Shown here in pieces: positions 4,581-7,267 of a stretch of DNA of 7,267 nt. Each line of letters starts with the position of its first letter. The first letter of the stretch is position 1. The DNA is from a virus (lineage: Duplodnaviria > Heunggongvirae > Uroviricota > Caudoviricetes), in IMG/VR virus record IMGVR_UViG_3300030438_000051. The stretch is one strand, 5' to 3'. The position numbers and the translations under genes are program-made. The notes below the pieces were generated by a model, which did not search any database, was not told where the DNA came from, and saw only the letters and a program-made list of their open reading frames with translations.

Positions 4581-4607
4581 AGCCCGCCGGTTCAGGCGGG
4601 CTTTTTT
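4581..4607 (+). terminator. Putative rho-independent terminator downstream of lom
   Basis: 8-bp perfect stem AGCCCGCC (4581..4588) and GGCGGGCT (4595..4602) around loop GGTTCA, followed by a T-run through 4607. It lies 27 nt after the lom stop and immediately before the stf ribosome-binding site. Confidence 0.65.
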
Positions 4608-4618
4608 GTGGAGTGGAT

Positions 4619-6991
4619 ATGGCAGCAGTAAAAATCTCAGGTGTGCTGAAAGATGGTGCGGGAAAACCAATACAGAACTGCACTATTCAACTGAGGGCAA
4701 AGCGTAACAGCACCACGGTACTGGTGAACACGGTGGCTTCTGAAAATCCGGATGAAGCCGGACGTTACAGCATGGATGTTGAGTATGGCCAGTACAGCGT
4801 CACCCTGCTGGTTGAAGGTTTTCCGCCTTCACATGCCGGGACCATTACCGTCTATGAAGGCTCCAGACCAGGTACGCTGAATGATTTTCTCGGTGCCATG
4901 ACGGAAGATGATGTCATGCCGGAGGCATTGCGTCGTTTTGAGGCAATGGTGGAAGAAGTGGCACGCAACGCCGAAGCCGCCTCTCAGAGCGCAGCGGCGG
5001 CAAAGAAATCCGAAACTGCAGCGGCATCATCAAAGAACGCGGCGAAAACCTCAGAAACGAATGCAGCTAATAGTGCACAGGCGGCAGCGGCCTCACAGAC
5101 TGCATCGGCAAACTCCGCGACAGCAGCCAAAAAATCAGAAACCAACGCGAAAAATAGCGAGACAGCCGCAAAGACGAGCGAAACCAACGCAAAGTCCAGC
5201 CAGACGGCAGCGAAAACCAGCGAAACGAATGCCAAAGCCAGTGAAACTGCGGCAAAAAACAGCCAGGTTGCAGCAGCCCAAAGCGAGAGCGCGGCAGCCG
5301 GTTCTGCGACTTCAGCAGCCGGATCAGCAACTGCTGCGGCTAACAGCCAGAAAGCTGCGAAGACGAGTGAAACTAACGCAAAGTCCAGCCAGACGGCAGC
5401 GAAGACCAGCGAAACGAATGCCAAAGCCAGCGAAACTGCGGCGAAAAACAGCCAGGATGCAGCAGCCGAAAGCGAGAGTGTTGCAGCTGGTTCTGCAAGC
5501 GCGGCGGCTGCTTCTGCCACTGCATCAGCTAACAGTCAAAAAGCAGCAAAAACCAGTGAAACCAACGCAAAGACAAGCGAGACTGCGGCAGCTAACTCGG
5601 CGAAAGCATCCGCTGCAAGCCAGACAGCGGCTAAAGCAAGTGAAGATGCAGCCAGGGAGTACGCAAGCCAGGCAGCTGAGCCGTATAAACAAGTTTTGCA
5701 GCCACTGCCTGATGTGTGGATACCGTTTAATGACTCGATGGATATGATTGCAGGATTTGGCCCGGGATATAAAAAAATAACAGTGCGCGATGATGTGGTC
5801 ACTATACCATCCGACAAAATTGTCCCGTTTTCCCGCGCGAGTTCCGCGACCTATATCAATAAGTCCGGCGCTCTTACCATTGCAGAAATTAATGAGCCAC
5901 GTTTTGAAAAAGAAGGGCTGTTAATTGAAGGGCAGAGAACTAACTATCTAAAAAATTCTAATACACCGGAATTGTGGTACTACCACAGTTTACTGGCGAA
6001 AGAGTATGGGGTTGATAATTACGGTTTTAATTATGCAACCGTCACCGTGACAGACAGCCTTGTAGGCACAACCAGTAGTTATCAGATTCATAGTGTAACT
6101 GGAGAGAACAGGTTTTCTCTGTCCATCGGTGAAACCTGCACTTTTTCTGCCCGCTTTCGTGGAGTTAATTCACGTTGTCGCGTCCATATATCTCTTGTTA
6201 TTGGCGAAAATGTTAAAACATCTGTTGATGTATGTCTGGAGCCAGATACAGGTGAGGTTAAGGCGTACGGTAATAAGGCGCTGGTGACATTCAGAACGGA
6301 AAAACAGGGGGACTGGTGTTACTTTGAAACAACATATACCGCCGCCGAGAATATTGACGAAGTGGTATGCGTTTTTTTTATAACCAATCCTGAAGATGGT
6401 GGTTTTTCTTCTGATTCGTCATTAACAATGACTACGCCGCAAATTGAAAAAGGGTCATGCGCTTCATCGTTTATTATTTCCGGAAACACACCAACCACGC
6501 GCGCCAGTGATATGGTTATTTTTTCAACCAAAAATAACATAAGTTCTGTCCCTTTAAGCTGTCTTGTTGAAATACATAAACATTGGGACTCTACGCCAAA
6601 TCAGGCCCCACGAATTTTAACCACTATTGGCGTGGCGACTAATGATGAACAACTGGTATTGGCTTTCAGGACGCCTACAAGTCCGGATGTAGAACCTTTA
6701 CCTTATGTTCAGTTTGGAGTGAGATCTGCATATCTTAGTCCATCTGTGAAGGCCGGGCGCAAAATGATTGCTGGTTTTGTCTGTAATAGCTCGACTGAAT
6801 TTCGTTGCTGTTGTAATGGTTACCTGTCACCTGTTCAGACTTCGTCATGGAAGAATACCGGAGCTGCACATGAAATACGTATTGGGGGAACTTCTGCTGG
6901 AGGAGAACGTCACTTGTTTGGTCACGTTCGTAACCTGAGAATATGGCATAAAGAATTAACTGATGCGCAAATGGGGGAGAGTATTAAATGA
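4619..6991 (+). CDS. stf: Side tail fibre protein (Stf-like): lambda-Stf-like N-terminal domain, Ala/Ser/Thr-rich repeat shaft, divergent distal (probably receptor-binding) domain
   Basis: The preferred start is ATG 4619, with GGAG at 4610..4613 and a 5-nt spacer; the six-frame track begins at an in-frame GTG at 4613 that lies within the Shine-Dalgarno sequence. The N-terminus MAAVKISGVLKDGAGKPIQNCTIQLRAKRNSTTVLVNTVASENPDEAGRYSMDVEYGQYSVTLLVEGFPPSHAGTITVYEGSRPGTLNDFL matches my recollection of the lambda Stf (orf-401) N-terminus. The central part is repeats of the KTSETNAKASETAAKNSQ type (phage tail-fibre repeat style). Stop TGA at 6989..6991. It is intact as one 790-codon ORF. Confidence 0.88.
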   Translation: MAAVKISGVLKDGAGKPIQNCTIQLRAKRNSTTVLVNTVASENPDEAGRYSMDVEYGQYSVTLLVEGFPPSHAGTITVYEGSRPGTLNDFLGAMTEDDVMPEALRRFEAMVEEVARNAEAASQSAAAAKKSETAAASSKNAAKTSETNAANSAQAAAASQTASANSATAAKKSETNAKNSETAAKTSETNAKSSQTAAKTSETNAKASETAAKNSQVAAAQSESAAAGSATSAAGSATAAANSQKAAKTSETNAKSSQTAAKTSETNAKASETAAKNSQDAAAESESVAAGSASAAAASATASANSQKAAKTSETNAKTSETAAANSAKASAASQTAAKASEDAAREYASQAAEPYKQVLQPLPDVWIPFNDSMDMIAGFGPGYKKITVRDDVVTIPSDKIVPFSRASSATYINKSGALTIAEINEPRFEKEGLLIEGQRTNYLKNSNTPELWYYHSLLAKEYGVDNYGFNYATVTVTDSLVGTTSSYQIHSVTGENRFSLSIGETCTFSARFRGVNSRCRVHISLVIGENVKTSVDVCLEPDTGEVKAYGNKALVTFRTEKQGDWCYFETTYTAAENIDEVVCVFFITNPEDGGFSSDSSLTMTTPQIEKGSCASSFIISGNTPTTRASDMVIFSTKNNISSVPLSCLVEIHKHWDSTPNQAPRILTTIGVATNDEQLVLAFRTPTSPDVEPLPYVQFGVRSAYLSPSVKAGRKMIAGFVCNSSTEFRCCCNGYLSPVQTSSWKNTGAAHEIRIGGTSAGGERHLFGHVRNLRIWHKELTDAQMGESIK
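5168..5545 (+). repeat. In-frame tandem duplication, 2 x 189 bp (63 codons each), within the stf repeat shaft, with a partial third copy beginning at 5546
   Basis: Seen in sequence: 5168..5356 (gcaaagacgagcgaaaccaacgcaaagtccagccagacggcagcg...) and 5357..5545 (gcgaagacgagtgaaactaacgcaaagtccagccagacggcagcg...) align along their whole length with scattered substitutions. About 27 nt of a third unit follow. Both units contain a shorter periodicity of roughly 21 and 42 bp. Confidence 0.8.
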
Positions 6992-7267
6992 AAGATTTAA
7001 CACTCAAATTTGCAGACAGGGCCGACTTTTCGGCCTTTATGGATAGCACGGGCTATTATGATGACGAGTCGATGCAGGATGATATTCTTATTGACGTGAT
7101 AGGTAACGTGTACAAAGAAACCGGAGAACTGACTGAAGATGGCGAACCGGTGTGTGTTAAGGAAGACGGATATTTTGTAAACGTGCGCATCATTAATGAT
7201 GCAAAAAAATCGTCAATATTCGATGAATACGCGGTTGTTGTTGAACATCAACTTCGTGGCTGGATGT
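6988..7267 (+). CDS. Hypothetical acidic protein, 3'-truncated by the window edge; start overlaps the stf stop (ATGA); candidate tail-fibre accessory or chaperone
   Basis: ATG 6988..6990 overlaps the stf TGA (6989..6991) and is preceded by GGGGGAGAG (6973..6981). I translated the frame by hand and it stays open for 93 codons to the window end: MKDLTLKFADRADFSAFMDSTGYYDDESMQDDILIDVIGNVYKETGELTEDGEPVCVKEDGYFVNVRIINDAKKSSIFDEYAVVVEHQLRGWM. It is absent from the supplied ORF track. I see no resemblance to lambda Tfa. The function is an inference from position only. Confidence 0.5.
   Translation, partial: MKDLTLKFADRADFSAFMDSTGYYDDESMQDDILIDVIGNVYKETGELTEDGEPVCVKEDGYFVNVRIINDAKKSSIFDEYAVVVEHQLRGWM

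What the first reader, a model, noticed from the sequence alone, without database searches (positions are those of the whole stretch)
6988..7267. Unknown acidic ORF translationally coupled to stf, not recognisable as a lambda-type Tfa
In lambda the side tail fibre gene is followed by tfa, the fibre assembly chaperone. Here the gene in that position overlaps the stf stop by ATGA and has a strong Shine-Dalgarno sequence, but its sequence (rich in Asp and Glu, MKDLTLKFADRADFSAFMDSTGYYDDE...) does not resemble lambda Tfa as I recall it. It may be a distinct chaperone or accessory factor matched to the novel distal domain, or an unrelated cargo gene. It is truncated by the window, so its full length is unknown.
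Basis: partly seen in the sequence, partly recalled or inferred. Interest (0 to 1): 0.6.

Follow-up and report, generated by a model that had tools for sequence, protein, structure and literature searches.

The report
Small partner gene of lectin-headed tail fibres
The acidic ORF after the side tail fibre gene is a real, complete 93-residue gene from an uncharacterised phage family that always follows tail fibres ending in a lectin-like head, so it is very probably a fibre accessory protein, but whether it acts as a folding helper or a structural adaptor remains untested.

Summary
An ORF starts at 6988, overlaps the stf stop as ATGA, has a GGAG 8 nt upstream, and is acidic (pI 4.2). It is not meaningfully truncated: all 93 codons are in the window and only the stop codon is cut.

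It has no Pfam or NCBIfam match and no similarity to lambda Tfa. It matches PHROG 1361 (function unknown) over its full length. The AlphaFold model is confident (pLDDT 86) but resembles no solved structure.

Comparative genomics gives the main result. In 95 loci found through the ORF, and in 83 found independently through the fibre's C-terminus, the small ORF directly follows a fibre ending in a GTA-spike-fibre plus LamG-like head, nearly always with overlapping stop and start codons. This holds in lambda-, T1-, T5-, 9g- and rV5-like phages, and in Aeromonas, Leclercia and Buttiauxella prophages.

The ORF does not co-vary with the variable part of the head. Here it is followed by a second short fibre gene (Peptidase_S74), a membrane protein and a tfa remnant.

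Best reading: a trans-acting assembly helper for lectin-headed fibres. Main rival: a virion adaptor holding the second fibre. This would be a new family doing a known kind of job. Interest is moderate.

The parts
4619..6991 (+). stf, the side (proximal) tail fibre gene. It has an N-terminal phage_tail_N domain, a repetitive Ala/Ser/Thr/Lys-rich shaft, and a C-terminal globular head.
   Evidence: ORF 4613-6991; RefSeq starts the CDS at the ATG equivalent to window 4619. Pfam phage_tail_N E=2.4e-66. PHROG 1419 'tail protein', full length.
5921..6505 (+). Variable sub-domain of the Stf head: a GTA head-spike-fibre type domain, probably the glycan-binding part.
   Evidence: NCBIfam NF048003 GTA_spike_fiber, E=2.7e-18, above the curated cut-off. 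Weak sequence match to RcGTA head spike fibre 6tb9. This is the most variable stretch among prophages.
6434..6988 (+). LamG / concanavalin-A-like C-terminal sub-domain of the Stf head. It ends in the conserved tail ...IRIGG..G.RHLFGHVRNLRIWHKELTDAQ.
   Evidence: All 18 of 18 aligned homologues hit Pfam Laminin_G_3 (best E=1.1e-7). The window's own copy scores E=1.8e-4, below the gathering score. The last ~35 residues reach 80-83% pairwise identity, against ~49% for the head as a whole. The region is 46% identical to the IrisVonRoten Gp22 head.
6973..6981 (+). Shine-Dalgarno-like GGGGGAGAG inside the end of stf.
   Evidence: Read directly from the sequence. The GGAG core ends 8 nt before the ATG.
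6988..6991 (+). ATGA stop/start overlap, indicating translational coupling of stf and the small ORF.
   Evidence: In 80 independently retrieved loci the same 4-nt overlap occurs in 61 and a 1-nt overlap in 16.
6988..7267 (+). The 93-codon acidic ORF (WP_001735043.1; PHROG 1361). It is complete except for the last two bases of its TGA stop, which would fall at 7268-7269.
   Evidence: PHROG 1361 E=2.1e-46 over residues 1-93. AlphaFold2 model pLDDT 86.2, order beta-alpha-alpha-beta-beta-beta-beta, with a lower-confidence C-terminal tail carrying invariant R90 and W92.

Best explanation
The ORF encodes a small, soluble, acidic protein that is the dedicated partner of tail fibres whose C-terminus is a lectin-like head (GTA-spike-fibre domain plus LamG-like domain). 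It is made in step with the fibre through stop/start overlap.

The most likely mechanism is that it acts in trans as the assembly helper for this class of fibre end. It would bind the conserved LamG-like C-terminal part of Stf and promote correct folding or trimer registration. That is the job done by Tfa for lambda/P2/Mu-type tips and by the self-cleaving Peptidase_S74 domain for T5/K1F-type tips. It is a functional analogue of these, not a homologue.

Shown: the gene is real and complete; it is strictly and anciently coupled to this head type; it is independent of the head's variable part; it is unrelated to known chaperone families. Inferred: physical binding to the head, and the helper role itself.
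For: (1) Strict co-occurrence in both directions: 95/95 loci retrieved through the ORF have the homologous head immediately upstream. Searching with the LamG tail alone found 5/5 loci in E. ruysiae, Aeromonas, Buttiauxella and Leclercia and 78/78 informative IMG/VR loci in which the small ORF follows.
(2) Coupled translation nearly everywhere: a 4-nt or 1-nt overlap in 77 of 78 loci.
(3) The ORF persists where no second fibre gene follows. This is seen in phage 21, PhiR41_1, the rV5-like phages JeffSchatz and naswa, and a Buttiauxella Mu-like prophage. In the prophage survey, 15/15 loci of ORF types 0 and 8 are followed directly by the membrane protein. Its core role is therefore tied to the head, not to the second fibre.
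(4) There is a 'one tip type, one helper' pattern. Within the same phage groups, the allele ending in a Peptidase_S74 intramolecular chaperone has no small ORF (rV5 gp41; DT57C LtfA). The allele ending in the lectin head has one (JeffSchatz, AKFV33, EC104). In this prophage the true tfa has decayed to a 39-codon remnant.
(5) It is always a separate polypeptide. No fusion to a fibre was seen among the family members inspected.
(6) Purifying selection, dN/dS 0.35.
(7) It is soluble, with no hydrophobic segment or signal peptide.
Confidence: 0.45

Rival explanations
1. Structural adaptor or 'knee'. The protein stays in the virion, bound to the LamG-like end of Stf. It forms the socket for the conserved N-terminal peptide (MATSTVIPxDIxxLK) of the second fibre protein encoded 10 nt downstream. 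This would give a two-segment or branched side fibre, working like T4 gp35 between gp34 and gp36.
For: Gene order is proximal fibre, small ORF, distal fibre in lambda-, T1-, T5-, 9g- and Dhillonvirus-type phages. There is an island of conservation made of the last ~35 residues of Stf (0.80-0.83), the ORF (0.93) and the first 20 residues of the distal fibre (0.90), flanked by variable sequence (0.37-0.55). Residues 1-26 of the distal fibre were seen only in the listed modules that carry this ORF, whereas residues 27-60 recur in many other fibres. Our ORF type is followed by a distal fibre in 69/69 unique loci. Humolli et al. 2025 model IrisVonRoten Gp24 as attached to the proximal fibre Gp22, and the ORF homologue is gp23 between them.
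Against: The ORF is retained, and not degenerate, in several lineages with no adjacent distal fibre, so docking a second fibre cannot be its core role. Across phage families the docking peptide (~67% identical) and the LamG tail (~78%, both read by eye from the sequences) are much better conserved than the ORF (37%). This suggests the peptide may bind the LamG tail directly. The correlation with the downstream gene may simply reflect 10-nt physical linkage; the low synonymous divergence (pS 0.09) shows the island is recently shared DNA. No virion proteomics detects the protein or excludes it.
Confidence: 0.3
2. Both roles at once, in the manner of T2 gp38: the protein helps the head assemble and then remains bound as part of the receptor-binding tip.
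For: This is compatible with all the synteny and conservation data above. In AKFV33 the lectin-headed fibre ran at 95.8 kDa against 83.1 kDa predicted, and the small protein adds 10.2 kDa. This is a weak hint only.
Against: There is no sequence or fold similarity to gp38-type adhesins: no Pfam or PDB match. The ORF is far less variable than the head among prophages, which is unexpected for a receptor-contacting protein. The gel-mass discrepancy is within the normal error for fibrous proteins.
Confidence: 0.12
3. Unrelated cargo (a moron), for example an anti-defence or exclusion factor that merely rides next to the fibre gene.
For: It has no recognisable family, it is small and acidic, and it lies near the prophage end where cargo genes accumulate.
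Against: It is equally present in strictly lytic T1-, T5-, 9g- and rV5-like phages, inside their fibre operons. It is always coupled to the same fibre end. There is no PADLOC match of any weight (E=0.039). Cargo genes do not show this strict synteny across Escherichia, Aeromonas and Leclercia.
Confidence: 0.04

Closest known systems
Lambda Tfa / P2 G / Mu U tail fibre assembly proteins (Pfam Caudo_TAP, PF02413)
   Same: The gene lies immediately 3' of the fibre gene, is co-translated with it, and is specific to one class of fibre C-terminus. The proposed job is the same: helping the fibre end fold or trimerise.
   Different: There is no sequence or profile similarity. It is half the size (93 aa against 194 aa). 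The predicted fold matches no solved tail fibre chaperone. A genuine Caudo_TAP remnant sits separately about 1.3 kb downstream.
Peptidase_S74 intramolecular chaperone domain (endosialidase / T5 pb1 type)
   Same: It alternates with the [lectin head + small ORF] arrangement at the C-terminus of otherwise homologous fibres in rV5-like and T5-like phages. The same alternation is noted for RBP_10 versus RBP_11 in the RBPseg atlas preprint.
   Different: S74 acts in cis and cleaves itself off, whereas this ORF is a separate gene with no S74 match. In this locus the S74 domain belongs to the next gene, the 234-aa fibre protein.
T4 gp35, the hinge between the proximal (gp34) and distal (gp36/37) half-fibres
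   Same: It sits between a proximal and a distal fibre gene, and would work the same way if the adaptor reading is right.
   Different: gp35 is about 370 aa (my own knowledge), and no homology was tested or seen. The ORF also occurs without any distal fibre gene.
IrisVonRoten (Bas32) lateral fibre module Gp22-gp23-Gp24 (Humolli et al. 2025, PMC11990801)
   Same: This is a direct homologue of the whole cassette. The head is 46% identical, the small ORF is about 37-40% identical, and the distal fibre carries the same N-terminal peptide. Gp22 is described there as a proximal fibre with a protruding galectin-like domain, and Gp24 as the attached distal fibre.
   Different: The paper does not discuss gp23 and gives it no role. 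Here the distal fibre is a minimal 234-aa coiled coil plus S74 domain rather than a 574-aa T-shaped fibre.

Membership tests
Caudo_TAP / lambda-type Tfa | Match to Pfam PF02413 (or Phage_tail_APC PF16778) | tested here: not met
   No Pfam family at E<=1 for the 93-aa protein. The same scan finds Caudo_TAP at E=6.9e-16 in the downstream tfa remnant.
Caudo_TAP / lambda-type Tfa | Detectable similarity to lambda Tfa (orf-194) | tested here: not met
   hhalign of the 38-sequence family profile against lambda Tfa gives probability 0.07%. BLASTP gives E=35.
Caudo_TAP / lambda-type Tfa | Gene directly downstream of the fibre gene it serves | tested here: met
   ATGA overlap with stf. The same position holds in 78/78 informative loci.
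Caudo_TAP / lambda-type Tfa | Required for folding or trimerisation of the fibre tip | not testable with these tools
   Needs co-expression or deletion experiments.
PHROG 1361 (phage protein family, function unknown) | Full-length match to the family HMM | tested here: met
   E=2.1e-46, residues 1-93 on profile positions 1-92 of 92.
Peptidase_S74 intramolecular chaperone | Match to PF13884 with the S-x-x-R-x-K cleavage motif | tested here: not met
   No match in the ORF. The next gene has it: E=4.4e-6, with SSIRYK at residue 116.
Fibre hinge / adaptor (T4 gp35-like, by function) | Encoded between the proximal and distal fibre genes | tested here: met
   True in this prophage and in 69/69 loci with this ORF type. 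Not universal for the family as a whole.
Fibre hinge / adaptor (T4 gp35-like, by function) | Present in the mature virion | not testable with these tools
   The published virion MS for AKFV33 covered only four gel bands. rV5 itself lacks the gene.
Known anti-phage defence proteins (PADLOC) | Significant match to a defence-system model | tested here: not met
   Only a chance-level hit, E=0.039 and 10.5 bits.

The most novel reading that the evidence does not exclude
The small protein is a virion-retained connector. Together with the LamG-like end of Stf, it captures a conserved 15-20-residue N-terminal peptide of a second, freely exchangeable fibre protein. Many lambdoid prophages and T1-, T5- and 9g-like phages would then carry modular two-tier or branched side fibres built on one universal plug-and-socket joint. 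This would be a siphovirus counterpart of the T4 gp34-gp35-gp36 knee, built from unrelated proteins.
Probability: 0.3. Interest if true: 0.6.

Novelty: new variant of a known kind. Interest (0 to 1): 0.45.

Why it matters
Lectin-headed side or lateral fibres are common: 990 of 5426 complete E. coli genomes carry this ORF, with up to five copies per genome. They also occur in many lytic coliphages and Salmonella phages used as models or for biocontrol. Every such fibre comes with this small gene, yet the gene is annotated 'hypothetical' and no paper I could find discusses it. If it is the helper or connector for this fibre class, anyone building chimeric fibres with these heads would probably need to bring the ORF along, for example in lambda-based delivery particles or host-range engineering of T5/T1-like phages. 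The conserved island (Stf tail, ORF, N-terminal peptide of the next fibre) would also mark the natural cut-and-paste points for swapping receptor-binding modules. The question can be tested directly in phages that are already in hand (BASEL Bas06, Bas25, Bas32; phage 21).

Tried and rejected
1. Complex prediction. I built a paired alignment of 21 fused sequences (Stf head, linker, ORF, linker, distal N-terminus; A3).
3. Sequence families. Pfam, NCBIfam, PADLOC and PDB profile searches found nothing for the ORF.
4. Virion proteomics. rV5 turned out to carry the S74 allele and to lack the ORF, so its MS table is irrelevant. The AKFV33 study analysed only four gel bands on a 10% gel.
5. Literature. 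Searches for the family identifiers (PHROG 1361, VOG7707, FIG00639828, bas32_0023) found nothing. The BASEL papers, the RBPseg atlas, the DT57C structure paper, the Eligo base-editing paper and the 9g, Hf4s, Cronobacter and phi24B papers do not treat this gene.
6. LtfC of T5/DT57C was considered and rejected. It is a different 140-aa gene upstream of ltfA.
7. The third profile search, with distant homologues added, listed only close E. coli members, so it gave family size but no new contexts.
8. Allele-specific co-evolution with the head was rejected on the identity profile and the contingency table.
9. Two short downstream 'ORF types' (MVLRIADGYHVD..., MELKGG...) proved to be spurious overlapping frames at the start of the membrane protein gene.
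Full report
**1. The observation**

The ATG at 6988-6990 overlaps the stf stop codon TGA at 6989-6991. A G-rich Shine-Dalgarno sequence, GGGGGAGAG, lies at 6973-6981, and its GGAG core ends 8 nt before the start. The reading frame gives MKDLTLKFADRADFSAFMDSTGYYDDES...HQLRGWM, 93 residues. The protein has pI 4.17, 21 acidic against 9 basic residues, and no hydrophobic segment. No ORF of 50 aa or more overlaps it on either strand.

Identical DNA in E. coli chromosomes is annotated as a 282-nt CDS, WP_001735043.1. One genome, E. coli S1-CAM-01-C, is 100% identical to window 4600-7267. The window therefore contains all 93 codons and the first base of the stop.

**2. It is a real gene**

Among 46 distinct 93-codon alleles, dN/dS is 0.35. 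Homologues of 85-124 aa occur in several groups: lambda-like phages, Drexlerviridae (T1-like), Dhillonvirus, Queuovirinae (9g-like), Markadamsvirinae (T5-like), Vequintavirinae (rV5-like) and phage-plasmids. The family holds at least 791 clusters at 90% identity but only 49 representatives at 50% identity among 1.84 billion proteins. It is thus a compact family, mainly of enterobacterial phages. It is present in 990 of 5426 complete E. coli genomes, with up to five copies each.

**3. What it is not**

- No Pfam or NCBIfam family matches at E<=1.
- PADLOC gives only a chance hit.
- The family profile finds nothing in the PDB.
- Against lambda Tfa, hhalign probability is 0.07% and BLASTP E is 35.
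- It matches PHROG 1361, function unknown, over its full length with E=2e-46.
- The AlphaFold2 model built from 38 homologues is confident: pLDDT 86.2, pTM 0.73. It is a small alpha/beta domain of order beta-alpha-alpha-beta-beta-beta-beta, followed by a less confident C-terminal tail that carries the invariant R90 and W92.

**4. The fibre it follows**

Stf has the prophage tail fibre N-terminal domain (E=2.4e-66) and a repetitive shaft. Its globular C-terminal region of about 430 aa has two parts.

- Residues 74-268 of that region match NCBIfam GTA_spike_fiber (E=2.7e-18, above the cut-off).
- The last ~185 residues are LamG/ConA-like. All 18 of 18 aligned homologues hit Pfam Laminin_G_3 (best E=1e-7). 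The window's own copy scores 1.8e-4, below the gathering score.

The whole region is 46% identical (E=3e-119) to the C-terminus of IrisVonRoten Gp22. Humolli et al. 2025 (PMC11990801) describe that protein as a proximal lateral fibre with a protruding galectin-like domain. The 'novel distal domain' is therefore a known, widespread head type.

**5.

Starting from the ORF, all 95 loci assembled have a fibre with the homologous head immediately upstream. These comprise 80 IMG/VR prophage loci plus annotated phages and genomes.

Starting from the fibre, I scanned one genome per species with the LamG tail only. This found five loci, in Escherichia ruysiae, Aeromonas finlandensis, Buttiauxella izardii and Leclercia adecarboxylata (two loci). 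In all five a recognisable family member follows. An example is Buttiauxella MKDIYLKF...IDVIGVIY...PGWHINLRIV...TPARVWA. This holds even where the head is only 26-29% identical.

A scan of IMG/VR with the same profile returned 80 loci, and 78 have the ORF directly after stf. The other two contigs end less than 175 nt after the stop. The start overlaps the stop by 4 nt in 61 loci and by 1 nt in 16.

**6. The ORF is not matched to the particular head**

Mean pairwise identities among 54 unique prophage loci:

| Region | Mean pairwise identity |
|---|---|
| C-terminal 340 aa of Stf | 0.49 |
| Last ~35 residues of Stf | 0.80-0.83 |
| The ORF | 0.93 |
| First 20 residues of the next gene | 0.90 |
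| Next gene beyond residue 20 | 0.37-0.54 |

In 100 unique loci, our ORF type pairs with 11 different LamG-body clusters. One LamG cluster pairs with four ORF types that are only about 50% identical to each other. Synonymous divergence of the ORF among prophages is low (pS 0.09). The island is therefore recently shared DNA flanked by recombination, and the same ORF evidently works with very different heads.

**7. What lies downstream**

In the genome identical to the window, the following come after the ORF:

- Ten nucleotides downstream, a 234-aa protein. It has the conserved N-terminal peptide MATSTVIPGDITTLK, a coiled coil, and a Peptidase_S74 intramolecular chaperone domain (E=4.4e-6, with SSIRYK at residue 116).
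- A 97-aa two-helix membrane protein (PHROG 1443).
- A 39-codon remnant of a true tfa (Caudo_TAP E=6.9e-16).
- The host genes dgc, ybhB and bioA, which mark the lambda attachment site.

Prophages carry two main alleles of the second fibre, 234 aa and 346 aa. Lytic phages carry versions of 225-576 aa.

Residues 1-26 of this second fibre appeared only in the listed modules that contain the small ORF. Residues 27-60 recur in DT57C LtfA, phiKT and Wifcevirus fibres.

The ORF also occurs with no second fibre: in phage 21, PhiR41_1, the rV5-like JeffSchatz and naswa, and a Buttiauxella Mu-like prophage where a baseplate hub gene follows. All 15 prophage loci with the phage 21 / PhiR41_1 ORF types go straight to the membrane protein.

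**8. Alternation with other helpers**

rV5 gp41 ends in an S74 domain and has no small ORF. The homologous fibre of JeffSchatz ends in the lectin head and does have one. The RBPseg atlas preprint notes the same domain swap (S74 versus a lectin-like head D69) and saw the head in cryo-EM maps at 7-9 Å, without mentioning the small gene. Other groups show the same pattern:

- T5 and DT57C fibres (S74) have no small ORF, whereas AKFV33, EC104 and IrisVonRoten fibres (lectin head) have one.
- Lambda has Tfa, whereas phage 21 has the lectin head and the ORF.

Each class of fibre end therefore has its own companion.

**9. Interpretation**

It is firmly supported that this is a fibre accessory protein whose core function is bound to the lectin-type head. 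Beyond that, two mechanisms compete.

I favour a trans-acting assembly helper, at about 0.45. The reasons are the one-tip-one-helper pattern, the persistence of the ORF without a second fibre, its obligatory separateness as a polypeptide, the coupled translation, and the decay of tfa in this locus.

The main rival, at about 0.3, is a virion-retained adaptor that holds the second fibre. It is supported by the gene order, the conserved island, the exclusive association of the N-terminal peptide with this module, the perfect correlation of ORF type with the downstream gene, and the BASEL annotation 'tail fiber protein'. Two points weaken it. Across families the docking peptide and the LamG tail are far better conserved than the ORF (sequences; 37% for the ORF). 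The linkage is also only 10 nt.

A dual gp38-like role is possible, at about 0.12. Unrelated cargo is unlikely, at about 0.04.

**10. Literature**

No paper retrieved characterises the gene. Published virion mass spectrometry is uninformative. AKFV33 was analysed from four gel bands only, and rV5 lacks the gene.

**11. Verdict**

The gene is real and complete. It belongs to an already catalogued but functionally unknown family. It is not a Tfa. It is strictly coupled to a widespread lectin-headed fibre class. It would be a new protein family performing a known kind of job (fibre helper or connector). Interest is moderate, and the question is readily testable in available phages.

Noticed in passing
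Beyond the window; L183 8395-8688 (= L001 10295-10588): A 97-aa protein with two hydrophobic helices (PHROG 1443, no Pfam match) ends the fibre cassette in temperate phages: the prophages, phage 21 and PhiR41_1. It was not seen in the fibre cassettes of the lytic phages examined. It could be a lysogenic-conversion or superinfection-exclusion factor linked to the fibre's receptor.
   Followed up: partly
Beyond the window; L183 7680-8384: The second fibre protein is minimal. About 115 residues of docking peptide plus coiled coil come before a Peptidase_S74 domain (SSIRYK at residue 116). After self-cleavage almost no receptor-binding part would remain. KarlJaspers has a 59%-identical 225-aa version annotated 'putative lateral tail fiber chaperone'. 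What such a stub does at the fibre end is unclear.
   Followed up: partly
Beyond the window; L183 8708-8827: A 39-codon C-terminal remnant of a genuine tfa (Caudo_TAP E=6.9e-16) lies just before the host junction at the lambda attachment site (dgc, ybhB, bioA). This suggests the lectin-head cassette replaced an ancestral stf-tip/tfa pair.
   Followed up: partly
L097 4564-4800 (Aeromonas finlandensis): In the Aeromonas prophage a 78-aa ORF sits between the lectin-headed fibre gene and the small-ORF homologue. It carries a CCQQHDRDY motif reminiscent of the phospholipase A2 active site.
   Followed up: no
L098 2672-5441 (Buttiauxella izardii): Here the lectin-headed fibre and small ORF sit directly upstream of Mu gp44/45/46/47-like baseplate genes rather than after a J/Lom pair. 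The cassette is therefore also used by Mu-like myovirus prophages, at a different position in the tail operon.
   Followed up: no
L101 1869-4490 (phage AKFV33 orf137/orf136): Niu et al. 2012 report the lectin-headed fibre ORF137 at 95.8 kDa on SDS-PAGE. Its predicted mass is 83.1 kDa and the small ORF adds 10.2 kDa. This may be only anomalous migration, but an SDS-resistant complex would be worth checking.
   Followed up: partly
window 4950-5650: The Stf shaft is built of near-perfect tandem copies of an Ala/Ser/Thr/Lys-rich unit (...AAKTSETNAKSSQTAAKTSETNAKASETAAKNSQ...), including a duplicated block of about 60 residues. Length variation here probably explains the 783-822-aa range of Stf among prophages.
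   Followed up: no
L002 3923-6292 (E. coli 50579417): In some genomes stf is broken into several pseudogene fragments, and its last 120 nt are mis-annotated as 'terminase'. The small ORF, the second fibre and the membrane protein remain intact.
   Followed up: no
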